Below, piece by piece: positions 17,768 through 39,456 of a stretch of DNA of 64,000 nucleotides. The notes beneath the pieces were generated by a model. The model was not told the origin of the DNA. It saw only the letters and a program-made list of their open reading frames with translations, and did no database searches. Source of the DNA: Burkholderiaceae bacterium (GTDB taxonomy: Bacteria > Pseudomonadota > Gammaproteobacteria > Burkholderiales > Burkholderiaceae_C); assembly GCA_041905785.1 (NCBI GenBank), contig JAYRKJ010000005.1, positions 188,319 to 252,318 on the forward strand, written 5' to 3'. Every line of letters starts with the position of its first letter. Positions within the stretch are counted from its first letter, which is position 1. The position numbers were made by a program, and so were the translations under genes.

Positions 17768-18901
17768 ATGGACACCAAGCTCAGAACGGACCGGCCCGAG
17801 CGGCCGCCGGCGCAGGACCGGTCGATGCGGCCGCCGCAGGTCCTGCCATCACCGCTTCAGCTGCGCCAGCAGACAGACGCCCCGGATCGCGAGGGGCTGG
17901 CTCTGATCGGCACGAGCCGCGCCCGCATTCGCCAACTGCTGCAGGGCCAGGATGACCGGCTGCTGGTGGTCATGGGCCCGTGTTCCATCCATGACCCACG
18001 CGCTGCGCTGGAGTACGCCAAGCGCCTGGCGCGTGAGCGCGACCGGCGCGGCGGCGAGCTGGAGCTGGTCATGCGCGTCTACTTCGAGAAGCCGCGTACA
18101 ACGGTGGGTTGGAAGGGCCTGATCCAGGACCCCTGGCTCGACGGCACGGGACAGCTGCACGAAGGGCTGTTCCTGGCCCGCCAGCTGCTGGTCGACATCA
18201 ACCGCCTGGCGCTGCCTGCCGCGACGGAATTCCTGGATCCCTTGGTGGCGCCTTTCGTGGAGGACCTGGTGAGTTGGGGCGCCGTGGGGGCGCGAACGAC
18301 CGAAAGCCAGACCCATCGCGAGATGGCTTCGGGTTTGCCCATGCCGATCGGATTCAAGAACGGCACGGACGGGAACGTGCGCATTGCCTGCGACGCGATC
18401 GAGGCGGCCTCCGTGCCGCACCACCGCCTGGCCCTGCATCCTGCCGGCAGTGTGGTGGCCCTGCGCACCAGGGGCAATCCCGACGGCCACCTGATCCTGC
18501 GCGGCGGACTGGAGCCCAACTACCAGGCCGGTCCCGTGGCGCAAGCTTGCGAGGCCTTGAGGAAGCGGGGGCTGCCGACGCGCCTGGTGGTGGACTGCAG
18601 CCATGGCAACAGCAGCAAGCAGCATGAACGGCAGCGGCTGGTGGCGGCAGACGTTGCTGCGCGCATCGCGGCAGGCGAGCGCCATGTTTGCGGCCTGATG
18701 GTGGAGAGCCACCTGAAGGCCGGCAGCCAGCCCTTCGTCGCCGGCCTTCACAAGGCCGATGCGCTGGTCTACGGGCAAAGCATCACCGATGGCTGCCTGG
18801 ACTGGCCATCCAGCCTGGAGCTGCTGGACGAGCTGCAGACGGCGGTGATCGCCCGCCGTTCGCTGCGCCGGACGCAGGGTCTGAACTTGACGGGCGCATG
18901 A
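17768..18901 (+). CDS. DAHP synthase, class I-alpha (siderophore-cluster copy)
   Basis: GPCSIHD, YFEKPRTTVGWKG, GARTTESQTHR, GFKNGT, DCSHGNS, SITDGC. Confidence 0.93.
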   Translation: MDTKLRTDRPERPPAQDRSMRPPQVLPSPLQLRQQTDAPDREGLALIGTSRARIRQLLQGQDDRLLVVMGPCSIHDPRAALEYAKRLARERDRRGGELELVMRVYFEKPRTTVGWKGLIQDPWLDGTGQLHEGLFLARQLLVDINRLALPAATEFLDPLVAPFVEDLVSWGAVGARTTESQTHREMASGLPMPIGFKNGTDGNVRIACDAIEAASVPHHRLALHPAGSVVALRTRGNPDGHLILRGGLEPNYQAGPVAQACEALRKRGLPTRLVVDCSHGNSSKQHERQRLVAADVAARIAAGERHVCGLMVESHLKAGSQPFVAGLHKADALVYGQSITDGCLDWPSSLELLDELQTAVIARRSLRRTQGLNLTGA

Positions 18902-18964
18902 CGGAGCAAAGCATGGCCATGTGATTTGCTTTGCATCTAATGCCAGTTTCTCAATTGCCGTAAC

Positions 18965-18979
18965 TGAGGCTCAATCTCA
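18965..18979. promoter_or_regulatory. candidate Fur-like 7-1-7 box upstream of second DAHP synthase
   Basis: TGAGGCT-C-AATCTCA; 9/14 to TGATAAT-N-ATTATCA and similar to the ftrA box; 45 nt before ATG. Confidence 0.33.
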
Positions 18980-19024
18980 TTCACTCGCTGGCCTGGAGGA
19001 CAGCGATGCTGAAGGAGATGTGAC

Positions 19025-20110
19025 ATGACCGTCGAAGTCGCCCGTTCCGCGCCCGGCTTTGTGGCCGAGCTGCTGACGCCAGGACAACTCAAGCGCCTGA
19101 TCCCCTGCAGTGCGGCCTCTGCCGCCACAGTGCAGCAGGCGCGCAAGAACATTCGGAGCATTCTGCAGGGGGGCAGTAACCGGCTGCTCGTCCTGATCGG
19201 CCCTTGCTCGATCCATGACTGCATGGCTGCCCGCCACTATGCGCGGCGCCTGCTGCGCATGCGAGAGCAGTGGGGTCAGGAGCTCGAAATCGTGATGCGT
19301 GCCTACCTGGAAAAACCCAGGACCACGCTGGGCTGGACGGGGCTGCTCAACGACCCCTTTCTAGACGGCAGCGGCCTGATTTCCCATGGGCTGGAGATCG
19401 GCCGCAGCCTGCTGGAGGAGCTCAACGCCATGGGCGTGCCGGTGGCCCACGAGATCGTGGCACCGGCCTCCTTGAGCTACCTCGATGACCTGCTGTCCTG
19501 GGTGGCCATCGGCGCTCGTACATCGGCGTCGCCGGTGCATCGTCAGCTTGCTTCGGGGCTGGACATCCCTGTCGGATTCAAGAATGGCGTGGAAGGGCAG
19601 GTGCAGGTGGCGGTGGAAGGCATCTTGTCGGCGCGGCATCCCCACAGCTATCTCGCGGTTCGACCGCAGGGGTCGCTCGGGATCTACAACAGCAGCGGCA
19701 ACGTCGACGCCCACCTGGTGATGCGCGGCGGCAAGCATCCCAATTTCGACGCCCAGAGCCTGGCCGAGGCAGCGTCCCTGCTGCGTGCGGCCGGCCTTGC
19801 CGACACCCTGGTGGTCGATGCCAGCCACGGAAACAGCCAGAAGGACCATCGCCGCCAGGGATTCGTGTGCGCTGACCTAGCAGGGCAGATCAGCGGCGGC
19901 AACCGTTCCATTGCCGGCGTAATGATTGAGAGCAACCTGCAGGCCGGCCGGCAGGACATCAAGCCTGGCAAAGTGCCGGATCCCGAGCTGAGCGTCACGG
20001 ATGCCTGCATAGGCTGGGATGAAAGCGCCGAGATCCTGGGCATGCTCGCGCAAGCGGTGAAGGCACGACGTCAGCGCAACCGGGCGCCTGCTTCCGAGGT
20101 CACTTTCTGA
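19025..20110 (+). CDS. DAHP synthase, class I-alpha (second, divergent copy)
   Basis: GPCSIHD, YLEKPRTTLGWTG, AIGART, GFKNG, DASHGNS, GVMIES, SVTDACIGW; AAGGAG RBS. Confidence 0.9.
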   Translation: MTVEVARSAPGFVAELLTPGQLKRLIPCSAASAATVQQARKNIRSILQGGSNRLLVLIGPCSIHDCMAARHYARRLLRMREQWGQELEIVMRAYLEKPRTTLGWTGLLNDPFLDGSGLISHGLEIGRSLLEELNAMGVPVAHEIVAPASLSYLDDLLSWVAIGARTSASPVHRQLASGLDIPVGFKNGVEGQVQVAVEGILSARHPHSYLAVRPQGSLGIYNSSGNVDAHLVMRGGKHPNFDAQSLAEAASLLRAAGLADTLVVDASHGNSQKDHRRQGFVCADLAGQISGGNRSIAGVMIESNLQAGRQDIKPGKVPDPELSVTDACIGWDESAEILGMLAQAVKARRQRNRAPASEVTF

Positions 20111-20154
20111 GGCCACTGTCTGAGGCCACTGTCTGAGGCCACTGTCTGAGGCCA
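20106..20154 (+). repeat. 13-bp tandem repeat, 3.8 copies
   Basis: TCTGAGGCCACTG x3 plus TCTGAGGCCA; first copy contains the DAHP synthase stop codon. Confidence 0.95.
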
Positions 20155-20302
20155 ATTCTCGAGGAACGCCAGGCCAGCCGCGCGTGGCAGCCCCCCCCTG
20201 ACGGCACCCACCCGGCCGGACGGGCCGCACCGCCTTCTCTTCATTCGAACGCCCCCCCGACGCGATCACCCTCGGGAAGCGCCCATTTCAAGGACTTGCA
20301 CC

Positions 20303-22300
20303 ATGAACGCCCCTCTGGACACCCCGCTGCTGCGGGAATCGGCATCGGAAGCCGACGCCGACCGCGCGTTGGAGCGCCCATCGCTTCCGGCACAGACGCA
20401 TGCGCCCAATCCCTCGGTGCAGCTCGCGCTCGGCCTCGGCAGCTTGCGCCAGGCCGCCGCGAGCCTGCATGCACAAGGCGGATTCGCGACGCGCGCCCGC
20501 CAGTTGCTGCAGCTTTGCGAGCATCTGCAACTGCATCGCGAATCGCTGATGCATGCCGGCTGGCTGGTGGGCTACGCGCCCTGGGACCAGCACCTGGACT
20601 TCGACGCCGGCCTGCTCGCGGTGCGCAGCATGGCGCAGCAGGTGGCCAACGAATGGCCCGATTCCATGCTGGTGCCGAAGTCCGAGCCGCATGCGCTGGA
20701 CAAAGAGGGCCGGTGCTGGACGGCCGAGGTGCTGGGCCGCGCCGCGGGCGTGGACGTGTTGATCCTGGGCCTGCACCGGCCCTGCGCACACCTGCTGCTG
20801 GGTTTCGCGAGCGCCTGGCTCGCCGGCCGATCCTGCCTGGTGCTCAGTCCGGAAGAGCATCCCCTGCTGGACTCCCTGCTGCTGGCGCTGCGCAGAGGTC
20901 TGCCGCACGGCGGCGCAGCGCTGCGCTGGATGGTGGGCGTCGACACGGCCCATGCCTTGGCGCAGCTGGAGTCGGCCGATCACGTGCAGGTCTGGAGCAC
21001 CCCGGTCGCAGGCGAGCTGCGCTGGGAAGGCATGCAGAGCTGTGCAGCCGATCGCACATTGCATCTGGCCGCCCCCGGCCTGGCGGTGCTGGATGATGCC
21101 GTCGCGGCGGGCAGTCCGATGTTCGAGAGAGTCGTCGACCTCGTGGCTTTGGGCGCCATGGCCGTCCACGGCCTGCATGAACATGCGGTGCGCACCGTCT
21201 GGCTGCCGCGCGAGCTGTCGACGGCCTTTGAAGCCGCCCTGCAGCAGCGTTGGCAGGCCTGGCACGGCAGCCGTCCCTCGCAGCACTGGCAAGGCAGCGC
21301 CGCGGCCGTGCAGCGGCTCGCCATGCAGTCGTGGATCCAGGACAGGCTGCACCAGGGTGCCACCCTGAGCGGTGCGACCGCGCAGGGGCCTGCCGTCCTC
21401 CGGCTGGCATCGCCCCATGACGCCGACGAGCGGGGCTTGGCGGCCCCGCCCCTGGGGCCGGTGCTCGCGCTCTGGGCCTATGACGACGTGGCGGCGTTGA
21501 GGCAAGCCCTGGAGGACAGCCACAGCGGCCGTCGTGCCGGCCTGGCCGTGCTGGCCTGCGGCGCTGAAGCGTGCAGGCGGCAGTGGGGCGCAGCATTGGC
21601 CCGCCGGCATCGCGCGCTGCACATCGTCGCAAACCCGCCCACGGTGCCGGCGGACCCCGACGATGCCTTGCGCCATGCCTGGGAATTGCTGGCCTCCCTG
21701 GACAAGGTCAGCGCCGAAGCGTCCCTCAAGGCATTGCTTCCTTCGTGCGCCGTGCTGGCCGCGCCGGCCGAACTCGGCGAATGCCTCCAGCAGTACCTGC
21801 CCGGCAGCCCGGTGCGCGAACTGGACCTCCACCCCTTTCGCTGCCACTTCGAAGACTTGCGCGTCGGCGACTCGCTGCTCACGCATCGCCGCACGGTCAC
21901 CGAGGCCGATATCGCGGCCTTCGGCGGGGTGTCGGGGGACTACTTCTACATGCACTTTGACGCGGAGGCGGCTGCCGCGTCTCCGTTCGGGCGCCGCATC
22001 GCCCACGGCTATTTCGTGCTGTCTGCAGCGGCCGGCCTGTTTGTCTGGCCCGGCGAAGGGCCGGTGCTGGCGAACTATGGCCTGGACAATCTGCGCTTCA
22101 TCCAGCCTGTCGGGATCGGCGACACCATCCAGGCTCGCCTGACCTGCAAGCGCAAACTGGACAAGGCACGCGCTGGCGGCAAGCGCGGCCAGGGGGTGGT
22201 GGTTTGGGACGTGCTCGTCTGCAATCAGCGTGGCGAAGCCGTGCTGCGCTACGACATCCTGACGCTGGTGGCCCGGCGAGGGCCGGAGGGGCAGGCATGA
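20303..22300 (+). CDS. PaaZ-like oxepin-CoA hydrolase with degenerate aldehyde dehydrogenase domain and intact MaoC hydratase domain
   Basis: C-terminus matches PaaZ closely ([53 protein letters not shown]); GQKCTAIRR-equivalent reads GLHEHAVRT. Confidence 0.85.
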
Positions 22301-28102: not shown

Positions 28103-28180
28103 CCCATGTCGGGCTGCGCGCGGCGCTTCATCGGCGCCGCGACGAACTGATCATCACCTTTGAACCAGAAGGAACTCGAC

Positions 28181-29083
28181 GTGAGTCAAGCGAAGCGAAA
28201 AGTACCGGCCCTGCGCCGCTCGTGGCTGTTTCTTGCCGGCGCCGACCGGCAGGCGCTGCTCGATGGCATCCACTCAGGGGCCGATGTGCTGGTCCAGGAG
28301 CTGGAGACCTTCACGCCACCGGCCCGACGTCCGGAAGCCCGGCAACTGAGCGGGGAGGTCATCCACGGCTGGCGTGAGGCTGGCATCCTCAGTTCGGTTC
28401 GGGTCAATCCGCTGGAAAACGGCGGCATGGAGGACCTCGCGGCCGTGATGCACCATCGGCCCGACATCATCATGATGTCCTACATCTCCACGCCGGAGCA
28501 GGTCGTCGCCCTGGACCAGGCCGTCTCCCACTTCGAGCGGGAGTACGGCATCGAGGCCGGCTCGACCGAGCTGGTGCCCAATATCGAAAGCACCCTGGGC
28601 GTGGTCAACACCATGGCCATCGGCAAATGCAGCCCGCGCGTCAGCGCATTGCTGGTCGCCACCGAAGACATGGTGGCGGACCTGGGTGCCCGCCGCACCC
28701 GGGCCGGCCATGAGCTGGACTACGTGCGCTCGCGATTCCTCGTGGAGTGCGCGGCCATTGGCATGCCGGCCATCGACTGCCCCTACAGCTACTCGGACAA
28801 CGAAGGGGCGGAGCTGGACATGCAGCGCTGCCGCGACCTGGGCTTTCGGTCCAAGGCCATCGTGAACGCCCAGTTCACGTCCGTGGTCAATCGCTGGCTC
28901 ACGCCCTCGGCCGCGGAGCTGGCACTGGCTCGGCGGGTGATCCAGGCCTTCGACCTCGCTCGCAGCCAGTCCGGCGGAAAACGGGTGCCGGCCGCCGTGG
29001 TGGACGGCTTCCTGGCTGAGATTCCCGACTACCTCGCGGCCCAGCGCCTGATCGCACGGGCCCTTCAATTCGGCATGGAGTAA
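28181..29083 (+). CDS. CitE/HpcH-HpaI aldolase-lyase family protein
   Basis: RRSWLF, SGADV...ELE, VRVN, IES, EDM.ADLG, AIDCP, GFRSK; GTG after AAGGA. Confidence 0.82.
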   Translation: MSQAKRKVPALRRSWLFLAGADRQALLDGIHSGADVLVQELETFTPPARRPEARQLSGEVIHGWREAGILSSVRVNPLENGGMEDLAAVMHHRPDIIMMSYISTPEQVVALDQAVSHFEREYGIEAGSTELVPNIESTLGVVNTMAIGKCSPRVSALLVATEDMVADLGARRTRAGHELDYVRSRFLVECAAIGMPAIDCPYSYSDNEGAELDMQRCRDLGFRSKAIVNAQFTSVVNRWLTPSAAELALARRVIQAFDLARSQSGGKRVPAAVVDGFLAEIPDYLAAQRLIARALQFGME

Positions 29084-29090
29084 GAACGGC

Positions 29091-29744
29091 ATGGAATCCC
29101 TGATTCAAAAATTCAAATCGCTGCCCGTCCTGACCGGGCAGTTGTCAGACTTCGATACCGCGGCGGTGCCCAGCAATCCGCAGGCGCTGTTCATGCAGTG
29201 GCTCGATGAAGCCCTTGAGCATGGCATCTGTGAGCCGCATGTAACGACCTTGTCTACGGTGGATCAGGACGGCGCGCCGGACGCCCGCTCGGTGGTCCTT
29301 CTCGACGTGGGCGAGGACGGCTGGCATTTCGCCGCCAATGCGGCCAGCCCGAAGGGCCGCCAACTGGCGAAGCAGCCGCAGGCCGCGATGACCTTCTACT
29401 GGGCCGGCCTGGGGCGCCAGATCCGCTTGCGGGGCGAAGTGAAGGCGCTGGCCCGCGAGGCCGGGCTGGCTGACTTCCGCAGCCGCCCCGAGAAGTCGCG
29501 CGCGGCCATTCTGGCCGCACGGCAAAGCGAGGTGCTTGAGCAGGCCGCTGACCTGGACAGCGCGCTGGCCGTGCAGCTGGCACGCCTCCAGGAAGATCCC
29601 GAGCTGGCCTCGGCGCACTGGACGATGTACGCACTCAAGCCCTTGGACGTCGAGTTCTGGCAGTCCAACGGCCAGCGCCGCTTCACCCGTCTGCGCTACC
29701 GGCGCCAGGGGCAGCAGTGGACACGACAGCTGCTGTGGCCATGA
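29091..29744 (+). CDS. pyridoxamine 5'-phosphate oxidase-like FMN protein (PdxH/PhzG family)
   Basis: TLSTVD..G.PDARSV, SPKGRQL, FYW..LGRQIRLRG, VEFWQ, RLRY. Confidence 0.88.
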   Translation: MESLIQKFKSLPVLTGQLSDFDTAAVPSNPQALFMQWLDEALEHGICEPHVTTLSTVDQDGAPDARSVVLLDVGEDGWHFAANAASPKGRQLAKQPQAAMTFYWAGLGRQIRLRGEVKALAREAGLADFRSRPEKSRAAILAARQSEVLEQAADLDSALAVQLARLQEDPELASAHWTMYALKPLDVEFWQSNGQRRFTRLRYRRQGQQWTRQLLWP

Positions 29745-30967
29745 GCAAGAACGTCGAGCTGAAACCGCAAGAGGGGTCGCACCCCTGGCAGCCCGACCAG
29801 GGGGTCGGCACGCGGCTGGTCCATGCCGGTCGCAATCCGGCGGCCTACCATGGCTTCGTCAACACCCCCGTCTTTCGCGCCTCGACAGTGCTGAGCCCCA
29901 CGGTCCGCGAGCTGCTGGGGCGTACGCAGCCCTACATCTACGGGCGCCGGGGCACCCCAACCTCGCAGGCCCTGGAGCGCGCCGTCTGCGAGCTCGAGGG
30001 CGGCGTTGGCGCCGTGCTGTGCCCCTCGGGGCTTTCGGCCTGCACGCTGGCGCTTCAGTCCTGTCTCAGGCCCGGCGACCATGTGCTGGTCACCGATGCC
30101 GTCTACGGTCCTGTCCGCCATGCCTGCGAGGGTCTGCTCAAGCGCATGGCCATCGACGTGAGCTACTTTGCGCCAATGATGGGCGCTGAGCTGGCCTCGC
30201 TCGTTCGACCGAACACCCGGGCCGTTTACCTGGAGTCGCCGGGTTCGCACAGCATGGAGGTGCAGGACATTCCGGCGATCGTCTCGGTCGCCAGGGCGCA
30301 TGAGCTGACGGTGATCGCCGATTGCAGCTGGGCCACGCCCTTGTTCCTCCCGGCGCATGAGCTCGGCGTCGACCTGTCCATCCAGGCGGGCACCAAGTAT
30401 CTGTTGGGCCATTCCGACGGGATGCTGGGCACGGTGTCGGCGTCGTCCCGCGCCTGGCCCGCGCTGAAGGCACTGCATGGCGACCTGGGCTTGTGCGTGG
30501 GTCCGGACGACGTGTTCCTCGCCTTGCGTGGTCTGCGTTCCCTGCAGGTGCGCCTGCGCCAGCACGAGCAGGGTGGCCTGCAGGTGGCGCGCTGGCTCAA
30601 GCAGCAGAAGGAGGTGGCACGTGTGCTGCACCCGGCGCTGGAGGACTGCCCGGGACATGCGTTCTGGAAACGCGACTTCAGAGGTTCTTCCGGCCTTTTC
30701 ACCGTGGTGCTGAAGCCGGCACCGTTCGCAGCGGTCGAAGCCTTTCTGGATGGTCTTCGCCTGTTCGGCCTCGGCTATTCCTGGGGTGGCTTCGAGAGCC
30801 TGGCCTTGCCGCTCGATGCCTCGAGCGGGCGGCTGACCGAGCTTTGCGAGCCGGGCAGTCAGTGCGTTCGGCTGCACATCGGGCTTGAAGACCCACAGGA
30901 TCTCATCGACGACCTGCGGGCCGGCCTGGATCGCCTGCAGAACGTATGCATGGAATCGTTGAGCTAG
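29741..30967 (+). CDS. metC: cystathionine beta-lyase-like PLP C-S lyase (MetC type)
   Basis: VNTPVFRAST, YGRRGTPT, YLESPGS, QAGTKYLLGHSD (PLP Lys), GYSWGGFESL; ATGA overlap. Confidence 0.88.
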   Translation: MSKNVELKPQEGSHPWQPDQGVGTRLVHAGRNPAAYHGFVNTPVFRASTVLSPTVRELLGRTQPYIYGRRGTPTSQALERAVCELEGGVGAVLCPSGLSACTLALQSCLRPGDHVLVTDAVYGPVRHACEGLLKRMAIDVSYFAPMMGAELASLVRPNTRAVYLESPGSHSMEVQDIPAIVSVARAHELTVIADCSWATPLFLPAHELGVDLSIQAGTKYLLGHSDGMLGTVSASSRAWPALKALHGDLGLCVGPDDVFLALRGLRSLQVRLRQHEQGGLQVARWLKQQKEVARVLHPALEDCPGHAFWKRDFRGSSGLFTVVLKPAPFAAVEAFLDGLRLFGLGYSWGGFESLALPLDASSGRLTELCEPGSQCVRLHIGLEDPQDLIDDLRAGLDRLQNVCMESLS

Positions 30968-30977
30968 AAGGGAGAGC

Positions 30978-31661
30978 ATGGACATGTTGACCGTATGGGG
31001 GCGGCGCAGCTCATTCAATGTTCAGAAGGTGATGTGGCTGATCGGTGAGCTCGGACTCCCGCATCGCCACATCCCGGCCGGCGGCGACTTCGGCGGCTGC
31101 GATACGCCGGCGTTCGAGCGGCTCAATCCGCACCAGCGTGTGCCCGTGATCGAGCATGACGGCGAGGTGGTGTGGGAGTCCCACGCCATCCTTCGCTACC
31201 TTGCCGCCAAAGCCGGCCGCGAACCCTTCTGGTCCGCGGACGCTCACCGACGCTCGCTGAGCGAGCGCTGGATGGATTGGAGCCAGAGCTCGCTGGAGCC
31301 CGATCTCATGCTGGGGCTCTTCTGGGCCCTCGTGCGAACGCCGGCAGAGCAGCGAGACGAGGCGCTGATTCGGACCAAGCTGGCCCTGAGCGTGCGGCAC
31401 TTCCAGCGCCTGGACGGCATCCTGGCCCGACAGCCCTACCTCAGCGGCGATGCCCTCGGGCTGGGCGACATCCCTGCCGGTGCCACGCTGTTTCGCTACT
31501 ACTCGATGGACATCGACAGGCCACGACTGCCGCACGTGAACGACTGGTACCGACGGCTTTGCGCCCGCCCGGCCTACCAGGAGCACGTGATGGTGTCCTA
31601 TGACGAACTGCGGGGCCGCCCAGACCGCAGCGCGCTCGTCCTGGACTGGGAGCTGCCATGA
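30978..31661 (+). CDS. glutathione S-transferase (GstB/YliJ-like)
   Basis: WGRRSSFNVQKV, LNP..RVPV, WESHAILRYL, WYRRLCARP. Confidence 0.93.
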   Translation: MDMLTVWGRRSSFNVQKVMWLIGELGLPHRHIPAGGDFGGCDTPAFERLNPHQRVPVIEHDGEVVWESHAILRYLAAKAGREPFWSADAHRRSLSERWMDWSQSSLEPDLMLGLFWALVRTPAEQRDEALIRTKLALSVRHFQRLDGILARQPYLSGDALGLGDIPAGATLFRYYSMDIDRPRLPHVNDWYRRLCARPAYQEHVMVSYDELRGRPDRSALVLDWELP

Positions 31662-32350
31662 AGCCGCCCGTGCTGCTGATCCTGCACCGGCCGCAGTCAT
31701 CGCCAGGTCGCGTCGGACGCCTGCTGAAGCAAAAGGGCTACGAGCTGGACATCAGGCGGCCGCCCCTGGGCGACACGCTCCCACCGACGCTGCGGGCGCA
31801 CAGTGGGGTGGTGGTGTTTGGCGGCCCCATGAGCGCCAATGATCCGGATCCCTGGCTGCGAACCGAGACGGACTGGCTTCGCGTCCCCTTGAGGGAGCAG
31901 GCGCCGCTTCTGGGCATCTGCCTGGGTGCCCAGCTGCTGGCACGCCATCTCGGTGCCGCCGTGCGCCCAAGGGCCGACGGCCGCGTCGAGATCGGCTACT
32001 GGCCGATCCGGCCCACGTCCAAGGGACGGCAGCTGGGGCACTGGCCCGAGCGCGTCTATCACTGGCATCGCGAGGGCTTTGATCTGGTGGACGGGATGCA
32101 GCGGCTCGCCGTCGGCGAGGTCTTCGAAAACCAGGCCTTCCATTACGGCAGGAAGGCCTATGGCCTGCAATTCCACCCCGAGGTCAGCTACCAGACCATG
32201 AACCGCTGGGCGCTGTCCGCACCCGACAAGCTGCACGCTCCCGGCGCTCAGCTGCTGGCGACGCAGCGTCATCAGGGCGGGCGGCATGACCGCGCCGGGA
32301 AAGCCTGGCTCAGCGCCTTTCTGGATGGCTGGCTCGCACCGGCCGCCTGA
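31658..32350 (+). CDS. class I glutamine amidotransferase-like protein (possible gamma-glutamyl peptidase)
   Basis: FGGPMSAND, LGICLGAQ (nucleophile Cys), GLQFHPE (His-x-Glu); ATGA overlap with GST. Confidence 0.88.
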   Translation: MKPPVLLILHRPQSSPGRVGRLLKQKGYELDIRRPPLGDTLPPTLRAHSGVVVFGGPMSANDPDPWLRTETDWLRVPLREQAPLLGICLGAQLLARHLGAAVRPRADGRVEIGYWPIRPTSKGRQLGHWPERVYHWHREGFDLVDGMQRLAVGEVFENQAFHYGRKAYGLQFHPEVSYQTMNRWALSAPDKLHAPGAQLLATQRHQGGRHDRAGKAWLSAFLDGWLAPAA

Positions 32351-33789: not shown

Positions 33790-34509
33790 TCAGAAGAGCA
33801 TCCCCAGCACGGCCGCCTTCAGCACCGCCTGCGTCTTGTTTGTCGAGTTCAGCTTCATCGTGGCCTTGGCCACATGAAAGTTGACGGTGCGCTTGGTCAA
33901 GCCCAGGATCATGGCGATCTCTGATGACGTCTTGCCGTCAGCCGTCCACTGAAGGATGGTGCGCTCCCGCTCGCTCAACCGGGAATCAGGCCGGTGGAAC
34001 AGTTGCGGGAGGCGGCGCTTCAGCACGCCGTCATGCAGACGCTGGCAAAAGCCGGCCAGCTCAGCCGCCTTCTCATCAAACTCCCCCAGCGACACGCCCC
34101 CATGTGTCCGGGCAAAGGTCATGGCGCCAATGATGCCGTGCTCGGTCCGCGCGGGCAGCGTGCAGCCGTAGTGCATGCCGCAGCTCAGCGCGGTCCGCCA
34201 GAAGAGGATGGGCGTCTGCTGGCCGGCCGCCGCCCACAGCCATGGGCTGCTGCTTCCCTGGGCGTGCCGAATCCACGGGTCTTGCACCGCGAAGTCCTGG
34301 CCCGCATAGGCTTCAAGCCATTCACGAGGCGCGTTGCCGGTCTGAATGACCGCCGGACGGGTCATTGGCGGATAGACATGCGCCTGGTACAGGCAATGAT
34401 CAAAGCCCAGCTTCTTCGCGAAAGAAGACATCAGCCGCTCGCATTCTTGCTCCTCAAGTTCGTGGCCGCATCGCGGAACAACCCCGCCATCAATAACGCA
34501 ATCCTGCAT
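33790..34509 (-). CDS. LuxR-family autoinducer-binding regulator (apparent solo)
   Basis: W-x3-Y, DP, W, G ligand-pocket pattern (EWLEAY..QDFAVQDPW..SPWLW..GMHYG); HTH WTADGKTSSEIA...TVNFH; alternative start 34560. Confidence 0.9.
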   Translation of the reverse strand: MQDCVIDGGVVPRCGHELEEQECERLMSSFAKKLGFDHCLYQAHVYPPMTRPAVIQTGNAPREWLEAYAGQDFAVQDPWIRHAQGSSSPWLWAAAGQQTPILFWRTALSCGMHYGCTLPARTEHGIIGAMTFARTHGGVSLGEFDEKAAELAGFCQRLHDGVLKRRLPQLFHRPDSRLSERERTILQWTADGKTSSEIAMILGLTKRTVNFHVAKATMKLNSTNKTQAVLKAAVLGMLF

Positions 34510-34919
34510 GCTTGACTCCCTGGTTCGTCGAGTGCCCACCATCAATAAATATTCAATCACTCGCGTTTCTCTGCATTCTCTTGGGTCGTTCTGACATGGA
34601 CGTTACCAACCGTGTCAGTCATGCCGGCGTGATCCTGCCAACGCCCAGAATCACCAGCAATCAAGCCACATTTGGCAAGTTTCATTTGCTTACATGCAAT
34701 GGGCGAACCCTCGCAAAATGCACAAACATGGAGCAAATGCCCACGCTATTGGCATGCACATTGACGTCAATATGCGAGTAACAAGTCGCGTGTTGTCGTG
34801 ATGCATAGGCCGGTATGGCCATGAGGACGCGACGACAGCGCCCAATTGCCAGCACGGCCGAGACGCGCCGGGATACGAGACCGGGCGAAGGGACGGCCGA
34901 CCTACGCCGAGTCCAGGCC

Positions 34920-35525
34920 TTAGGCGCGAACCGCGCTTCGATAGCGGCCCAGCACCCTCAGTTCGCAGGCCAGAGCAGCAGCGTCCTGCAGGGCCAGCCT
35001 GACGTCTTCGCGGTCGGGAGGGGCGGCGATGGTGAAATGGAAGCGATAGTGCCAGCCCGCGACGCGCGCCGGCCGCGAGCACCAATGCTCGACGGACAGG
35101 CGACGTCGCGCCAGCGGCGACAGCAGCTCCAGCATGCTGCCGGTGCGCTGCGCAAGGGACACCGCGATCATCAGGCGGTCGTCATCTTCACCCGGTGGAT
35201 GGCCCTTGCCTGCGATGACGCCATACCTGATGCAGGAGGTGCCACCCAGCGGGGTCGGCGGTGTTGGCGTGCCGGGCACCAGCACTTCGCCCACCATGCT
35301 GACTGCGCCCGAGTAGAGAAGATCGAGGCTGCGGTTGACGGGGCCATCCCTGCTGCATTCCAGCGGCATGACACCGTAGCGGCATGCTCCTTCCGCTACG
35401 GCGGCATGGATGGCATCCAGGCTTGCAAAGGGCAGACGCGGCGGCTCAGGTCCGAAGTACCTGGCCGCGGCGAGCTCGCCGGCGGATCCCTGCGGGCCCG
35501 GATAGGCGATGCCGGCATCCGCCAT
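34920..35525 (-). CDS. shortened prephenate dehydratase-like protein with ACT domain (TdaC-like)
   Basis: IAYPGPQGS, YGVMPLECS..GPV..SLDLL, then ACT (GSMLELLSPLA...SRP); only 201 aa. Confidence 0.72.
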   Translation of the reverse strand: MADAGIAYPGPQGSAGELAAARYFGPEPPRLPFASLDAIHAAVAEGACRYGVMPLECSRDGPVNRSLDLLYSGAVSMVGEVLVPGTPTPPTPLGGTSCIRYGVIAGKGHPPGEDDDRLMIAVSLAQRTGSMLELLSPLARRRLSVEHWCSRPARVAGWHYRFHFTIAAPPDREDVRLALQDAAALACELRVLGRYRSAVRA

Positions 35526-35553: not shown

Positions 35554-36717
35554 TCAGGCCGCCTGGGGCGCCGCCAGCGGGCGGGTCACGGCCTGCGCGG
35601 TCAGCGGCCGGATCATCTGGTTGAAGATGTTCTTGCGATGCATCTCCTCGGTGCCGCCCACGCTGGCGAAGCCCAGGGCGTCACGCATCAGGGTCGCGAT
35701 CGGTCCTTCATGGTAGCCGCGGCTTCCATACAGCCGGACCAGATCCAGCGCGCTCTTGATGAGGTCTTCCGATCCCACCAGCTTGGCCACCGAGCAGGCC
35801 AGCAAGGCGTCGGGCTGCTCGCCCAGCAGCCGACCGAGCGCGCCGAGCGCCGTCCAGCGGCTGCGCTCCATGCCGATGCGGATGTCCGTCAGGCGACGCT
35901 GCACATACTGGTGGTCGATGATGGGCTCGCGGAAGCTGTGCCGCGCCTGGGCATAACGCAAGGCGTCATCAAGAAAGGGCGCAGCCAGCGCGGCGGCCAC
36001 CAAGCCGTAATATGCGCGCCCCAGCGAAATGATGTCGATGAGCTGACGCAAGCCGCGCTTGGGATCGCCCAAGACCTGGGCGTGCGGCACGAAGACGTCG
36101 TGGAACTCCAGGCTGCCCGTGGGAAGATCCGCGTTGCCCAGCTTGTGATCACTCGGGCCGGTCACCAGGCCATCAGCGTCTCGGTCCACGAAGACCAGGC
36201 CCACCGCCTCCGGCGCGTCGGCATACCGGCAAACAACCAGCGAGAACGCTGCCATGGGGGCATGCGCAATGTTGTATTTGCTGCCGTTCAGCAGATAACC
36301 CTCGGCGCAGGGCGTCAGTGTGCTGCCCAGGCTGCGCACGTCTGTACCGGTACTGGGCTCGGCGATTCCCGTGGCGCACAGCTCCCCGCGCGCCAGCGCG
36401 GCCAGATACTTGTCCTTCTGTGCCACCGTGCCGTAGCGCTGCAGCCCGCGGACCATGCCCGCCTGCGCAATGGCCGACAGCAACAGGGCAGGGGAGCGGA
36501 TGGAGAGCGACAAGCCCTCCAACGCTGCCGTGAAGTCCCACCAAGCCGGCGTACTGCCCTCCCGCTGGCCGATGAGCTGCCAAAGGCCCTCCTGGCGCAG
36601 GCGGCCCCAGCGGCACGCGTCAAAACCCGGCTGCGCGCCCATGGCGGCGAGCTGCTCACCCAGCCCGCGAAAGCGGTGGTGCAAGGCCAGTTGGTGTTCA
36701 GACCACTGCATCATCAT
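35554..36717 (-). CDS. acyl-CoA dehydrogenase-fold flavoprotein (TdaE-like candidate)
   Basis: TGIAEPSTGTDV, LNGSKYNI, KLG, AKL, GSRGY, GGTEEM; AAGGAG RBS. Confidence 0.85.
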   Translation of the reverse strand: MMMQWSEHQLALHHRFRGLGEQLAAMGAQPGFDACRWGRLRQEGLWQLIGQREGSTPAWWDFTAALEGLSLSIRSPALLLSAIAQAGMVRGLQRYGTVAQKDKYLAALARGELCATGIAEPSTGTDVRSLGSTLTPCAEGYLLNGSKYNIAHAPMAAFSLVVCRYADAPEAVGLVFVDRDADGLVTGPSDHKLGNADLPTGSLEFHDVFVPHAQVLGDPKRGLRQLIDIISLGRAYYGLVAAALAAPFLDDALRYAQARHSFREPIIDHQYVQRRLTDIRIGMERSRWTALGALGRLLGEQPDALLACSVAKLVGSEDLIKSALDLVRLYGSRGYHEGPIATLMRDALGFASVGGTEEMHRKNIFNQMIRPLTAQAVTRPLAAPQAA

Positions 36718-36739
36718 GGCGCTGCTCCTTGCCTTCGGC

Positions 36740-37153
36740 TCAGACGCTGCCCTGGAAATCCAGGATCTTGGCCTTGAATTCTTCGGTGACCGGCGTGGTC
36801 TTGTTCGTGGCGTAGTCAAACATCACATGCTTCGAGTAGCCGCGTGCCACCACGGTGTCCTGCTCATCCTGGCGATGCATCACGTGCTCGATCTCGAAGC
36901 TCTTGGTTCCGAAGTTGCTGACCCGACTGCGAACCACCAGGCTGTCGCCGAACATGGCCGGCTGCACATACTCGCAGGCAGTTTTCACCATGATGTGAGG
37001 CAGCTTCTCATGCTTGGGGATGGACAGCACCTTGAACATGAACTCGAGGTAGGCATGCTGAAGATAGTCGTAGTAGACCGGGCTGCTGACATGACCCATT
37101 GAATCAGTGTCCCGATATTTCACCTGGATGGGCGTTTCAAAGTTCCTGCTCAT
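36740..37153 (-). CDS. hotdog-fold acyl-CoA thioesterase (4-HBA-CoA/YbgC type, TdaD-like)
   Basis: IQVKYRDTDSMGHV...YYDY, FGTKSF; AAGGAG RBS. Confidence 0.88.
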   Translation of the reverse strand: MSRNFETPIQVKYRDTDSMGHVSSPVYYDYLQHAYLEFMFKVLSIPKHEKLPHIMVKTACEYVQPAMFGDSLVVRSRVSNFGTKSFEIEHVMHRQDEQDTVVARGYSKHVMFDYATNKTTPVTEEFKAKILDFQGSV

Positions 37154-37400: not shown

Positions 37401-37415
37401 TGAGAATTGCTCTCA
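37401..37415. promoter_or_regulatory. Fur-like box upstream of ftrA
   Basis: AA-TGAGAAT-T-GCTCTCA-TT, 7-1-7 inverted repeat 33 nt before ATG of an iron-uptake gene. Confidence 0.72.
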
Positions 37416-37448
37416 TTTACGATGCGCCGACTTTCACTCGGAGGCATC

Positions 37449-38006
37449 ATGACTTTGACTCGCTGGCAGCAAGCCTGCATCCTCAGCGCGGGCCTGTGCT
37501 GGAGCGCACTCGCGGGCGCGGCGGAGATTCCCATCGGAACGCCACAGAACCTCGCAGGCATGGAAATCGCGGCGGTGTATCTCCAGCCGGTCGAGATGGA
37601 GCCTGACGGCCATATGCGCCCAGCCGCTGACAGTGACATCCATCTCGAGGCCGACATCCACGCCCTGGCCAGCAACGCCAACGGCTTTGCCGAAGGCATG
37701 TGGATCCCCTATCTGCACATCCGCTATGAGCTGCGCAAGGTGGGCAGCAGCGATGTGATCAGCGGCGTCATGATGCCCATGGTCGCCAGCGATGGCCCGC
37801 ACTATGGCGACAACGTCAAGCTGCGCGGCCCCGGGAAGTACCAGGTCCGCCTCACGGTGTATGCGCCCAATGCGCCCGAGAACGCCATGGGCAAACACTT
37901 CGGGCGCCATACCGACCGTGCCACCGGCGTGCGCCCCTGGTTCAAGCCGCTGACCGCCGAATGGGAGTTCAGCTACGCAGGCATCGGCAAGAAGGGCGGG
38001 TATTGA
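37449..38006 (+). CDS. ftrA: periplasmic Fe2+-binding protein, P19/FtrA family
   Basis: Signal peptide; EIAAVYLQP, DIHLEADIH, M.PMVASDGPHYGDN, HTD..TGV..WFKP. Confidence 0.93.
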   Translation: MTLTRWQQACILSAGLCWSALAGAAEIPIGTPQNLAGMEIAAVYLQPVEMEPDGHMRPAADSDIHLEADIHALASNANGFAEGMWIPYLHIRYELRKVGSSDVISGVMMPMVASDGPHYGDNVKLRGPGKYQVRLTVYAPNAPENAMGKHFGRHTDRATGVRPWFKPLTAEWEFSYAGIGKKGGY

Positions 38007-38007
38007 G

Positions 38008-39456
38008 ATGAAGCTGAGCAAGGGTACGCTGCTGGGCAGCGTCCTGCTGGCGCCAGCGCTGGCCATCGCCCAGGGCAGCACGGCGGCGCAGCCCTCTCTC
38101 AAGGACGTTCTTGAGCGCCTGCAGCGCTTGGAAAACGAAAACCAAGCCTTGCGAGCCCGTCTGGACGCTGTCGCCCCCGACACGGAGAAGCGGATCCAGG
38201 CACTCGAGTCCGCGCAGCAGCAAACCGACAAGGCGCTGAACACGGAGCGGCTCAGCGAGAAGGAGCCGGAGCTCGTGACGCGGCTCAAGGCGGTGGAGTT
38301 CCAGACCCTGGCCATGCAGAAGCAGGCGCGCCAGATCGAGGCCCTGGAAGGCGTGAGCGTGTCGGCCTCGCTGGCCAGCGTGCTGCAGGCGGCCGATGCG
38401 GCGTCCACGCCCGACGGCCGGCGCCAAGCCCGCCTGAACTACCGCGGCGACGTCTCCATCGGCGCACCCGGTGGTTCGCTGGGCGATATCGAAGGCCGGC
38501 TGTTCGCCCATGTCCGACTGGGCCAGGGCGAAGGACTGCCGCTGCGCGACAGCCATGCCGGCGGCAGCAATGCAATCGCCTTCCAGACGCAGGCAGGCGC
38601 CTCGGACTCCTTCGCGGTGCTGGCGCAGGCCTGGTACCAACTGACCATCCCGCTGCCGCGCGATCACGGGCAGGCCAAGGCTCGCGAGCAGTTGGAACTG
38701 ACCGTCGGCAAGATGGACCCCTTCCTGTTCTTCGATCAGAACGCCATCGCTGACGACGAGACCACGCGCTTCCTGAACAAGGTCTTCGTGCACAACCCCA
38801 TGCTGGATGCAGGCGGGGACATCGGCGGTGACGCCTATGGATTCACACCGGGCGTGCGCCTGGCCTACACCAGCCGGCCCGATCGCACGAGCAGCTGGAG
38901 CGCGTCACTGGGACTGTTTGCTGCCGGTGATGCGGCAAGCTTCGGTGGCGGGCTCAGCAAACCCCTGCTGCTGGCACAACTGGACACCAGCCGCCGGCTG
39001 TGGGACGGGCTGCCCGGCAGCTACCGCGTCTATGCATGGCGCAATGCGCAGGCAAGCGACCACGATGGGACGAGCGCCGTTCATGCGGGCTGGGGCGCCT
39101 CGATCGACCAGCGGCTGTCCGACAGCTATACCGGCTTCTTGCGCTACGGCCAGCAGGCCAAGGGATCGCCGCGCGTGGACCGCGCCCTGACCCTAGGCAT
39201 GGAGCTCGACGGCCGCCATTGGGGCCGCGGAGCCGATGGCCTTGGCCTGGCACTGGGTTGGCTGCACAGCGGCGCTGCCTATCGCGCCGCACAGGGCACG
39301 GGCGCGCAGGAACAAGTCTGGGAGCTCTACTACCGCTATCAGCTCAACGACAAGGTGCAGATCACGCCGGACCTGCAGTGGATACGGCATCCGCTGGCGC
39401 TGGCCGGCAGCCCGGCGATTCGCGTGCTGGGCATCCGCGCCAAGGTGGGTCTCTGA
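38008..39456 (+). CDS. OprB-like porin with N-terminal coiled coil
   Basis: Signal peptide, heptad segment, GKMDPF.FFDQN, WELYYRYQL, ITPDLQWI, LGIRAKVGL. Confidence 0.8.
   Translation: MKLSKGTLLGSVLLAPALAIAQGSTAAQPSLKDVLERLQRLENENQALRARLDAVAPDTEKRIQALESAQQQTDKALNTERLSEKEPELVTRLKAVEFQTLAMQKQARQIEALEGVSVSASLASVLQAADAASTPDGRRQARLNYRGDVSIGAPGGSLGDIEGRLFAHVRLGQGEGLPLRDSHAGGSNAIAFQTQAGASDSFAVLAQAWYQLTIPLPRDHGQAKAREQLELTVGKMDPFLFFDQNAIADDETTRFLNKVFVHNPMLDAGGDIGGDAYGFTPGVRLAYTSRPDRTSSWSASLGLFAAGDAASFGGGLSKPLLLAQLDTSRRLWDGLPGSYRVYAWRNAQASDHDGTSAVHAGWGASIDQRLSDSYTGFLRYGQQAKGSPRVDRALTLGMELDGRHWGRGADGLGLALGWLHSGAAYRAAQGTGAQEQVWELYYRYQLNDKVQITPDLQWIRHPLALAGSPAIRVLGIRAKVGL

What the first reader, a model, noticed from the sequence alone, without database searches (positions are those of the whole stretch)
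35554..37153. Thioesterase plus ACAD-fold flavoprotein lacking both canonical catalytic glutamates (TdaD/TdaE-like)
Seen: the MCAD-type YEGT position reads VGGT, and the IVD/LCAD-type xER position reads LGR. The gene sits between a hotdog thioesterase and the PDT-like gene, the same trio as tdaC/D/E in a different order. Known: TdaE is an ACAD-fold flavoprotein dioxygenase that oxidises the cycloheptatriene-CoA, cleaves the CoA ester and epoxidises the ring. Inference: this is the core tropone-maturing enzyme, and its epoxide would be a natural GST substrate.
Basis: partly seen in the sequence, partly recalled or inferred. Interest (0 to 1): 0.78.

Follow-up and report, generated by a model that had tools for sequence, protein, structure and literature searches.

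The report
TdaE/TdaD tropone-forming enzyme pair
These two adjacent genes are clear orthologues of an already characterised flavoenzyme and thioesterase pair (TdaE/TpoE and TdaD/TpoD) that diverts a by-product of phenylacetate breakdown into tropone antibiotics; here they sit in a probable sulfur-tropone gene cluster of a Roseateles-like betaproteobacterium, so this is a new member of a known kind, not a new enzyme type.

Summary
On the minus strand, 36740-37153 encodes a 137-aa 4HBT hotdog thioesterase. 35554-36717 encodes a 387-aa protein with a full acyl-CoA dehydrogenase (ACAD) fold. It reads VGGT where MCAD/SCAD carry the catalytic Glu (YEGT), and LGR where IVD carries its Glu (xER).

The missing glutamates are not a peculiarity of this gene. 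They are the published signature of the TdaE family: SVGGTEEMH and S-L/M-G-R are near-invariant in about 100 homologues.

The protein is 51%, 55% and 58% identical to the three biochemically characterised members (TdaE of P. inhibens, TdaE of B. plantarii, TpoE of Pseudomonas Ps652). It nests inside the clade they span. The thioesterase is 61% identical to Phaeobacter TdaD and keeps its catalytic Asp.

The surrounding cluster matches the published, unverified B. cenocepacia "ditropolonyl sulfide" cluster. It contains two DAHP synthases, an ALDH-dead PaaZ2, efflux genes, and a block of CitE-like, PNPOx-like, MetC-like, GST and amidotransferase-like genes. A complete paa catabolon lies elsewhere in the genome. 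No TdaF is present.

The "tdaC-like" gene is an internally deleted prephenate dehydratase. It is not detectably similar to Phaeobacter TdaC.

It remains open whether the flavoprotein (TdaE type) or the thioesterase (TpoD type) cleaves the CoA ester.

The parts
36740..37153 (-). tdaD/tpoD-like acyl-CoA thioesterase: 137 aa, 4HBT hotdog fold, catalytic Asp17 in the DTDSMGHV motif
   Evidence: Pfam 4HBT_2 E 3.7e-20. 61% identity to Phaeobacter TdaD. Aligns to solved thioesterase 5byu; the Asp that is mutated in 5dio corresponds to Asp17 here. AAGGAG ribosome-binding site. dN/dS 0.04.
35554..36717 (-). tdaE/tpoE-like ACAD-fold flavoprotein, 387 aa, start MMMQW
   Evidence: Pfam ACAD domains. Best PDB sequence hit only E 5.5e-31, so no TdaE structure has been solved. 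51/55/58% identity to TdaE(Pi), TdaE(Bp) and TpoE. Tree placement. AF2 pLDDT 94.7 and TM 0.84-0.88 to ACADs. dN/dS 0.12.
35650..35661 (-). VGGT (residues 353-356). Gly354 replaces the MCAD/SCAD-type catalytic Glu. Part of the family signature SVGGTEEMHRKNIFNQM.
36016..36024 (-). LGR (residues 232-234). Gly233 sits at the position of the IVD-type catalytic Glu. Family motif IISLGR.
34920..35525 (-). Short PDT-like protein (201 aa). It keeps the N-terminal half of the PDT domain and the ACT-like C-terminus. About 86 aa are deleted internally. The TRF motif reads IRY.
   Evidence: Pfam PDT match covers only profile positions 1-79 of 181. Two-segment alignment to the B. plantarii-type P-protein. 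No similarity to Phaeobacter TdaC. 72% identical orthologue in L003 with dN/dS 0.21.
33790..34560 (-). LuxR-type regulator (autoinducer-binding plus GerE domains) downstream of the tdaD-E-PDT genes
   Evidence: The same gene is present in the relative L003 and in the Burkholderia clusters.
28160..32350 (+). Accessory block: CitE/HpcH-like CoA-ester lyase, PNPOx/PhzG-like protein, MetC-like C-S lyase, GST, class I amidotransferase-like protein. Same genes in the same order as the B. cenocepacia/B. seminalis cluster.
20150..22300 (+). PaaZ2: intact MaoC hydratase domain and degenerate ALDH domain (catalytic Cys replaced by Glu)
   Evidence: Pfam finds only MaoC. PaaN-DH model 290 bits against a cut-off of 563; ALDH model 24.6 bits against 597 bits for the genome's own PaaZ. 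In the alignment, GQKCTAIRR of the real PaaZ faces GLHEHAVRT here.
17768..20110 (+). Two DAHP synthase genes (precursor supply)

Best explanation
The two genes form the core tropone-forming step of a specialised-metabolite cluster.

Substrate supply. The genome's phenylacetate (paa) catabolon, together with the cluster's ALDH-dead PaaZ2, produces the shunt product 2-hydroxycyclohepta-1,4,6-triene-1-carboxyl-CoA (dihydrotropone-2-carboxyl-CoA).

Flavoprotein step. The ACAD-fold FAD protein is a TdaE/TpoE orthologue. It uses this substrate as its own electron donor and dehydrogenates the ring to tropone-2-carboxyl-CoA. The reduced flavin then reacts with O2 to give flavin-N5-oxygen adducts, which epoxidise the ring.

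CoA-ester cleavage. The ester is removed in one of two ways:
- oxygenolytically by the flavoprotein itself, as in TdaE of P. inhibens and B. plantarii; or
- hydrolytically by the adjacent TdaD/TpoD-type hotdog thioesterase, as in Pseudomonas Ps652.
I cannot decide between the two and put them at roughly even odds.

Fate of the product. The product, 2,3-epoxytropone-2-carboxylate, is a reactive electrophile. Left alone it decarboxylates to tropolone. In this cluster it is probably captured by the GST, gamma-glutamyl-peptidase-like and C-S lyase genes to give a sulfur-containing tropone.

Shown here: orthology, fold, motifs, gene context, and presence of the substrate pathway.
Inferred from published biochemistry of orthologues: the chemistry.
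Speculative: the sulfur steps and the final product.
For: Orthology and tree:
- 51%, 55% and 58% full-length identity to the three biochemically characterised enzymes, identified by accession: WP_014881725.1 (TdaE Pi), the B. plantarii protein, and VVM49077.1 (TpoE).
- These three are only 51-60% identical to one another.
- The ML tree puts the window protein inside the 32-row clade that contains all three (SH-aLRT 99). That clade is separated from classical ACADs by a branch with 100% support.

Motifs and fold:
- The family signatures are all present: IAEPxTGTDVRS, KYNIAHAP, LGNxDLPTG, IISLGR, HQYVQRRL, LYGSRGYHEG and SVGGTEEMHRKNIFNQM.
- High-confidence ACAD fold.

Thioesterase and operon structure:
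- The thioesterase is 61% identical to TdaD and retains the catalytic Asp.
- The two genes are separated by 22 nt, and both have ribosome-binding sites.

Genomic context:
- The cluster content matches Table S3 of Duan et al. 2021 and the B. seminalis locus.
- PaaZ2 is ALDH-dead.
- A full paa operon is present on another contig: paaG, paaI, paaK, paaA, paaB, paaC and paaE called by NCBIfam (paaG below its cut-off, paaD not scored), followed by a TetR-type regulator, an ABC substrate-binding gene and paaZ.

Selection and distribution:
- Purifying selection acts on both genes, and the flavoprotein gene is present in 6 of 8 species of the genus.

Published mechanism.
Against: No biochemistry exists for this protein or for any member of its immediate subclade (Roseateles/Mitsuaria).

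The subclade has lost the N-domain PxxYGGxG loop that other TdaEs keep. The consequence of that loss is unknown.

The 2024 mining study warns that many TpoE-like flavoproteins sit in clusters that probably do not make tropolones.

The GST is only weakly similar to Phaeobacter TdaB (24% over 102 aa), and TdaF is absent. The downstream chemistry therefore cannot simply be copied from TDA biosynthesis.
Confidence: 0.87

Rival explanations
1. TpoE/TpoD-type division of labour. The flavoprotein only dehydrogenates and epoxidises, giving epoxytropone-2-carboxyl-CoA. The adjacent hotdog thioesterase is essential and hydrolyses the CoA ester. This is a sub-variant of the best explanation, not a different family.
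For: It has been shown for the Pseudomonas Ps652 homologues, where TpoD is essential in vivo. The window protein is slightly closer to TpoE (58%) than to TdaE(Bp) (55%) or TdaE(Pi) (51%). The thioesterase is very strongly conserved: dN/dS 0.04, 61% identity to TdaD, catalytic Asp kept. TdaD-like thioesterases accompany all closely related clusters.
Against: At the 31 alignment columns where the two thioester-cleaving TdaEs agree and TpoE differs, the window matches the TdaEs at 12 and TpoE at 5. One of the 12 is Arg361 in the SVGGTEEMH-R motif, which is Gln in TpoE. This signal is weak, because it rests on three enzymes and no residue is known to control cleavage. In the tree, the B. plantarii enzyme, the window clade and the Pseudomonas clade form an unresolved trichotomy.
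Confidence: 0.45
2. A TdaE-like flavoprotein that acts on a different, non-tropone CoA or carrier-protein substrate in an unrelated pathway.
For: The 2024 genome-mining study concluded that many clusters with TpoE-like flavoproteins probably make other products. More distant homologues with AGGT or LDR motifs form separate basal clades.
Against: The window protein lies inside the clade of the three tropone-forming enzymes, not in the basal clades. It is clustered with PaaZ2, DAHP synthases and a TdaD orthologue, which are the tropone-specific context. The genome has the paa catabolon.
Confidence: 0.07
3. A classical ETF-dependent acyl-CoA dehydrogenase, or another Glu-less ACAD-fold enzyme such as 3-sulfinopropanoyl-CoA desulfinase or a group D flavin monooxygenase.
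For: It has the ACAD fold and ACAD Pfam domains. The top NCBIfam hit is the desulfinase model.
Against: Both catalytic-base positions are Gly. Every NCBIfam ACAD, desulfinase and DszC model scores far below its cut-off, for example 131 bits against 600. Identity to solved ACADs is only 22-26%, against 51-58% to the TdaE/TpoE enzymes.
Confidence: 0.03

Closest known systems
TdaE of Burkholderia plantarii (TdaE-Bp) and of Phaeobacter inhibens (TdaE-Pi), flavoprotein dioxygenases (Duan et al., JACS 2021, PMC8283759)
   Same: ACAD fold. Both catalytic Glu are absent. All family motifs are present, including SVGGTEEMHRKNIFNQM. Identity is 55% and 51%. It is adjacent to a TdaD thioesterase. The gene order TdaD-TdaE-PDT is the same as in B. 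plantarii. It depends on the paa catabolon, with a PaaZ2 as in P. inhibens.
   Different: The N-domain PxxYGGxG loop is lost in the Roseateles subclade. The host is a Roseateles/Mitsuaria-like genus, for which I found no tropone literature. The cluster lacks TdaF, TdaA (LysR) and a recognisable Phaeobacter-type TdaC. The PDT gene is internally deleted, unlike the full P-protein of B. plantarii.
TpoE/TpoD of Pseudomonas sp. Ps652, 7-hydroxytropolone/3,7-dihydroxytropolone cluster (bioRxiv 10.1101/2024.04.03.587903)
   Same: It is the closest characterised homologue (58%). The flavoprotein and hotdog thioesterase are paired. A CitE/HpcH-like 'TpoB-like' lyase is in the cluster.
   Different: TpoE has Gln where the window and both TdaEs have Arg361. 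The tpo cluster supplies precursor through TpoF and TpoG, not through DAHP synthases and PaaZ2. The tpo cluster has no GST/C-S-lyase sulfur genes.
Predicted ditropolonyl sulfide cluster of Burkholderia cenocepacia Bp8974 / B. seminalis (Table S3 of Duan et al. 2021)
   Same: The block CitE-like, PNPOx-like, cystathionine-beta-lyase-like, GST and amidotransferase is in the same order. It also has a LuxR-type regulator, a tripartite MFS efflux system, an AraC regulator, a DAHP synthase and TdaD. It has no TdaF.
   Different: The window additionally has PaaZ2, a second DAHP synthase, a TetR regulator and the short PDT-like gene. No glutamate-cysteine ligase was seen in the cluster. TdaE is 57% identical. 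The Burkholderia cluster itself has not been verified experimentally.
Janthinobacterium sp. PLB04 TDA cluster (PMC13163973, 2026)
   Same: A betaproteobacterial TdaE (about 60% identity to J. lividum) together with patB, a glutamine amidotransferase and paaZ2.
   Different: Janthinobacterium has tdaA, tdaB and tdaF and lacks tdaC. The window genome has no tdaF.

Membership tests
TdaE/TpoE flavoprotein family (tropone-forming ACAD-fold oxygenases) | Three-domain acyl-CoA dehydrogenase fold | tested here: met
   Pfam M and C domains are above the cut-off and the N domain is just below it. AF2 pLDDT 94.7 and Foldseek TM 0.84-0.88 to SCAD/BCAD.
TdaE/TpoE flavoprotein family (tropone-forming ACAD-fold oxygenases) | No catalytic Glu at either the MCAD/SCAD or the IVD position, with the conserved family motifs (SVGGTEEMH, S-L/M-G-R, KYNIAHAP and others) in their place | tested here: met
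TdaE/TpoE flavoprotein family (tropone-forming ACAD-fold oxygenases) | Phylogenetic placement within the clade spanned by the characterised enzymes (TdaE-Pi, TdaE-Bp, TpoE) | tested here: met
   The tree (clade SH-aLRT 99; quick search without bootstraps). Reference sequences were identified by accession.
TdaE/TpoE flavoprotein family (tropone-forming ACAD-fold oxygenases) | Genomic association with a TdaD/TpoD thioesterase and with phenylacetate/shikimate precursor-supply genes, plus a paa catabolon in the genome | tested here: met
TdaE/TpoE flavoprotein family (tropone-forming ACAD-fold oxygenases) | FAD-dependent, O2-dependent conversion of dihydrotropone-2-carboxyl-CoA to an epoxytropone-2-carboxyl product | not testable with these tools
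   Requires enzyme assays and 18O2 labelling.
Classical acyl-CoA dehydrogenases (ETF-dependent) | Catalytic glutamate base at the MCAD-type or the IVD-type position | tested here: not met
   Gly354 and Gly233. All NCBIfam ACAD equivalog models score far below their cut-offs.
TdaD/TpoD 4HBT-type thioesterases | Hotdog 4HBT fold with an N-terminal catalytic Asp, orthology to TdaD, and adjacency to the flavoprotein gene | tested here: met
Canonical tropodithietic acid (tda) cluster of Rhodobacteraceae | TdaF (HFCD-family flavoprotein) present | tested here: not met
   The only two PF02441 hits in the 99.8%-complete genome are UbiX (253 bits to the UbiX model) and a 414-aa frame. I take the latter to be CoaBC from its size; it was not scored against a CoaBC model.
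Canonical tropodithietic acid (tda) cluster of Rhodobacteraceae | TdaC and TdaB orthologues | tested here: not met
   The PDT-like protein against Phaeobacter TdaC gives E 0.71. The GST against TdaB gives 24% identity over 102 aa, E 0.004: a GST-superfamily relationship only.
B. cenocepacia-type (predicted ditropolonyl sulfide) tropone cluster | The collinear block CitE-like, PNPOx-like, MetC-like, GST and amidotransferase, together with TdaE, TdaD, LuxR and MFS tripartite efflux | tested here: met
   The glutamate-cysteine ligase listed for Burkholderia was not looked for outside the genes scanned.

The most novel reading that the evidence does not exclude
The TdaE/TdaD pair feeds its reactive epoxytropone-2-carboxylate into a glutathione-based sulfur-insertion route: the GST, then a gamma-glutamyl-peptidase-like class I amidotransferase, then a MetC-like C-S lyase. 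Because TdaF and the Phaeobacter-type TdaB and TdaC are absent, the product would be a sulfur tropone that is neither TDA nor necessarily ditropolonyl sulfide. It would be a genus-specific, LuxR-controlled metabolite of Roseateles that has not been described. The strongly conserved thioesterase, not flavin-N5-peroxide oxygenolysis, might release the CoA.
Probability: 0.3. Interest if true: 0.55.

Novelty: new member of a known kind. Interest (0 to 1): 0.3.

Why it matters
TdaE is the only known flavoprotein dioxygenase and the gateway to bacterial tropones: tropolone (a virulence factor), TDA, roseobacticides and hydroxytropolones.

This locus adds a well-supported orthologue in a genus, Roseateles/Mitsuaria, for which my one full-text search (tropolone plus Roseateles) found no paper. 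The cluster type it sits in has only been predicted in Burkholderia, never verified.

The practical value is moderate. It is a candidate source of a new sulfur tropone. It is also one more data point on the open question of whether CoA release is oxygenolytic (TdaE) or hydrolytic (TpoD). It does not reveal a new enzyme class, because the 'missing glutamates' are the published hallmark of the family.

Tried and rejected
1. A solved TdaE structure. The best PDB sequence hit is a generic ACAD at E 5.5e-31, and Foldseek returns only classical ACADs. No TdaE structure exists to compare active sites against.

2. Equating the PDT-like gene with Phaeobacter TdaC. BLASTP gives no similarity (E 0.71). 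Phaeobacter TdaC has only a faint match to a different part of the PDT profile. I rejected orthology and kept only 'PDT-derived'.

3. Equating the GST with TdaB. The relationship is at superfamily level only.

4. Looking for TdaF to decide whether TDA is the product. None was found.

5. Predicting the thioester-cleavage phenotype from residues that distinguish TdaE(Pi/Bp) from TpoE. The window matches the TdaEs at 12 columns, TpoE at 5 and neither at 14. With three reference enzymes this is too weak to use.

6. The desulfinase (AcdDPN7-like) reading suggested by the top NCBIfam hit. I rejected it: 131 bits against a cut-off of 600.

7. A literature search for tropolone in Roseateles returned nothing.

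8. The named active-site residues of TdaE are shown only as coloured figures in the 2021 supplement and are not stated in the text. A residue-by-residue check against 'published catalytic residues' was therefore limited to the conserved motifs.
Full report
**1. What is at the coordinates**

The window has high G+C content (about 62-74% in 2-kb windows). Within the interval the real genes lie on the minus strand.
- 36740-37153 encodes a 137-aa protein (P0002).
- 35554-36717 encodes a 387-aa protein starting MMMQW (P0001).
- 34920-35525, just downstream of the interval, encodes a 201-aa protein (P0003).

The reported interval runs exactly from the stop codon of P0001 to the start codon of P0002. 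The genes are spaced 22 and 28 nt apart. The first two have AAGGAG ribosome-binding sites.

Pfam assigns the following:
- P0002 to the 4HBT_2 hotdog thioesterases (E 3.7e-20).
- P0001 to the ACAD middle and C-terminal domains, with the N domain just below the cut-off.
- P0003 to prephenate dehydratase, but covering only profile positions 1-79 of 181.

**2. The observation**

Bases 35650-35661(-) translate to VGGT, and 36016-36024(-) translate to LGR.

In HMMER alignments to solved ACADs, Gly354 faces the catalytic Glu of the (G/F/Y)-E-G-T motif. Gly233 aligns with Gly240 of P. inhibens TdaE. The published structure-based alignment places that residue opposite the IVD catalytic Glu.

Gly-Arg at the IVD position is normal for MCAD/SCAD-type enzymes. 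Only the joint absence of both glutamates is unusual.

An AlphaFold2 model built on 82 homologues is confident (pLDDT 94.7, pTM 0.91). It superposes on SCAD, BCAD, glutaryl-CoA dehydrogenase and others at TM 0.84-0.88 with only 22-26% identity. The fold claim holds. No TdaE-type structure is in the PDB.

**3. What it is**

A search of 5.8 billion proteins found about 105 full-length homologues at 37-85% identity. Below that, identity drops sharply to classical ACADs at 33% or less.

Cluster look-ups identified the three biochemically characterised enzymes among these homologues (accessions as given):
- P0141 = WP_014881725.1, TdaE of P. inhibens.
- P0122, the B. plantarii TdaE.
- P0181 = VVM49077.1, TpoE of Pseudomonas sp. 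Ps652.

P0001 is 51%, 55% and 58% identical to them over its full length. They are 51-60% identical to one another.

In a maximum-likelihood tree (48 rows, LG+C20 model, SH-aLRT support), the TdaE-like proteins are separated from classical ACADs by a branch with 100% support.
- The window protein lies inside the 32-row clade (support 99) that contains all three characterised enzymes.
- Within that clade it sits in a subclade with Roseateles and Mitsuaria sequences.
- That subclade forms an unresolved trichotomy with B. plantarii TdaE and the Pseudomonas/Janthinobacterium group.

A motif survey of about 120 aligned sequences shows S/A-V-G-G-T-E-E-M-H in about 100 of them and S-L/M-G-R in about 100. 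The classical ACAD outgroups carry Y/F-E-G-T or an IVD-type Glu.

These are the motifs shown for 'functional TdaE homologues' in Fig. S62 of Duan et al. 2021. That paper states explicitly that the conserved active-site residues of TdaE are lacking in classical ACADs. The 'missing glutamates' are thus the published hallmark of a known family.

**4. The thioesterase**

P0002 is 61% identical to Phaeobacter TdaD. It aligns with solved 4HBT-type thioesterases. The Asp that is mutated in entry 5dio relative to 5byu corresponds to Asp17 of the window protein, in DTDSMGHV, and is retained. Its dN/dS against the orthologue in the 85%-related genome is 0.04. The values for the flavoprotein and the PDT-like gene are 0.12 and 0.21.

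**5. Context**

Upstream, mainly on the plus strand, lie:
- two DAHP synthases;
- a PaaZ paralogue;
- an AraC regulator (minus strand);
- an OEP/HlyD/MFS efflux system;
- a CitE/HpcH-like CoA-ester lyase;
- a PNPOx/PhzG-like protein;
- a cystathionine-beta-lyase-like PLP enzyme;
- a GST;
- a class I amidotransferase-like protein;
- a TetR regulator.

A LuxR-type regulator follows on the minus strand.

The PaaZ paralogue keeps its MaoC hydratase domain but has a degenerate ALDH half. It scores 24.6 bits on the ALDH model, against 597 bits for the genome's own PaaZ. The catalytic Cys motif GQKCTAIRR is replaced by GLHEHAVRT. It therefore matches the 'PaaZ2' type described for P. inhibens.

The CitE-like, PNPOx-like, lyase, GST and amidotransferase block is collinear with the 'tda gene cluster' listed for B. 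cenocepacia Bp8974 (proposed to make ditropolonyl sulfide) and with the B. seminalis locus. A genome 85% identical at TdaE is fully syntenic, including the divergent Ftr iron-uptake operon.

The order TdaD-TdaE-PDT is also the order in B. plantarii and B. perseverans.

The window's own genome is 4.84 Mb and 99.8% complete. It carries a canonical paa operon on another contig: paaG, paaI, paaK, paaA, paaB, paaC, paaE and paaZ were called by NCBIfam, all above their curated cut-offs except PaaG. The paaD gene was not scored. The TdaE substrate can therefore be made.

The flavoprotein gene occurs in 6 of 8 species of the genus, but in only 1 of 150 genera sampled from the family. The nearest named carriers are Roseateles flavus, Mitsuaria sp. 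WAJ17 and R. subflavus.

**6.

- The PDT-like protein is not detectably similar to Phaeobacter TdaC (E 0.71).
  - It aligns in two segments with the B. plantarii-type bifunctional P-protein: residues 100-178 and 265-362 of that protein.
  - About 86 residues of the PDT domain are missing.
  - The TRF motif reads IRY here, and TRY in the relative.
  - It is conserved and under purifying selection, so it is a real gene, though probably not a catalytic dehydratase.
- The GST is related to TdaB only at superfamily level.
- There is no TdaF. The only two PF02441 hits in the genome are UbiX and a 414-aa frame that I take, from its size, to be CoaBC.
- The cluster is therefore not a TDA cluster in a different order. 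It is the Burkholderia-type sulfur-tropone cluster with additional genes.

**7. Mechanism**

By orthology, the flavoprotein should oxidise dihydrotropone-2-carboxyl-CoA, using the substrate itself as the reductant of FAD. It should then activate O2 through flavin-N5 adducts and epoxidise the ring.

For TdaE(Pi) and TdaE(Bp), the same enzyme also cleaves the thioester oxygenolytically. For Pseudomonas TpoE, the CoA ester persists and the TdaD-like TpoD hydrolyses it; TpoD is essential in vivo.

Which regime applies here cannot be decided from sequence.
- The window protein is marginally closer to TpoE overall.
- It agrees with the two TdaEs at 12 of 31 discriminating columns and with TpoE at 5. 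One of the 12 is Arg361 next to the VGGTEEMH motif, which is Gln in TpoE.
- The extreme conservation of the thioesterase argues that it has a real role.

The product, epoxytropone-2-carboxylate, decays spontaneously to tropolone. The authors of the 2021 paper themselves suggest that sulfur nucleophiles attack it.

**8. Novelty and score**

The enzyme type, its signature, its partnership with the thioesterase and this cluster architecture are all in the literature (2021, 2024, 2026). What is new is the host genus and the particular gene complement (PaaZ2 plus the short PDT-like gene plus the sulfur cassette, without TdaF).

This is a new member of a known kind, and I score interest at 0.3.

**9. 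Earlier notes of this scan**

The notes list the same cluster genes, the ALDH-dead PaaZ and the GST/peptidase/lyase cassette. I confirmed the PaaZ substitution independently. The rest agrees with my annotation but did not change my reading.

Noticed in passing
window 34920-35525 (-): The PDT-like protein is a prephenate dehydratase with an internal deletion of about 86 aa. It keeps the N-terminal PDT half and the ACT-like end. The catalytic TRF motif reads IRY here and TRY in the 85%-related genome. It is conserved (72% identity, dN/dS 0.21), so it is probably a regulatory or ligand-binding remnant and not a dehydratase.
   Followed up: partly
window 36550-36600 (-), residues about 45-58 of the flavoprotein: The Roseateles/Mitsuaria subclade of TdaE has lost the N-domain 'IVPxxFGGxG' loop that other TdaEs and classical ACADs keep (it reads LWQLIG----QREGSTPAWW). 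This explains the sub-threshold Pfam N-domain score. The functional consequence is unknown.
   Followed up: partly
whole genome (G000); L007, L008: No TdaF homologue is present. The only two PF02441 flavoproteins are UbiX and a 414-aa frame that is probably CoaBC (not scored against a CoaBC model). The cluster product is therefore unlikely to be tropodithietic acid made by the Phaeobacter route.
   Followed up: yes
window 37407-42028 (+) and L003 4711-9293: An Ftr-type iron uptake operon (Fe2+ transport protein, OprB-like porin, FTR1 permease, polyferredoxin; the relative L003 also has a cupredoxin gene) lies divergently next to tdaD. The adjacency is conserved in the 85%-related genome. Tropolones chelate iron, so the juxtaposition may be meaningful.
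   Followed up: no
L001 12593-13171 (Phaeobacter porticola plasmid): A ChaC-family gene (glutathione-specific gamma-glutamylcyclotransferase family) lies three genes downstream of tdaE in Phaeobacter. This parallels the amidotransferase-like (gamma-glutamyl-peptidase-like) gene of the window's cluster and hints at a shared glutathione-trimming step.
   Followed up: no
window 35635-35637 (-), Arg361: In the motif VGGTEEMH-R, the Arg is conserved in at least 90% of TdaE-like and classical ACAD sequences but is Gln in Pseudomonas TpoE, the one homologue shown not to cleave the thioester. The window keeps Arg. This is a candidate determinant worth mutating, but it is unproven.
   Followed up: partly
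genus and family level: The tdaE gene is present in 6 of 8 species of the window's genus but in only 1 of 150 genera sampled from its family. This points to a genus-restricted acquisition, probably horizontal.
   Followed up: partly
It looks like a catechol-siderophore locus upstream of the tropone cluster.
   Followed up: no
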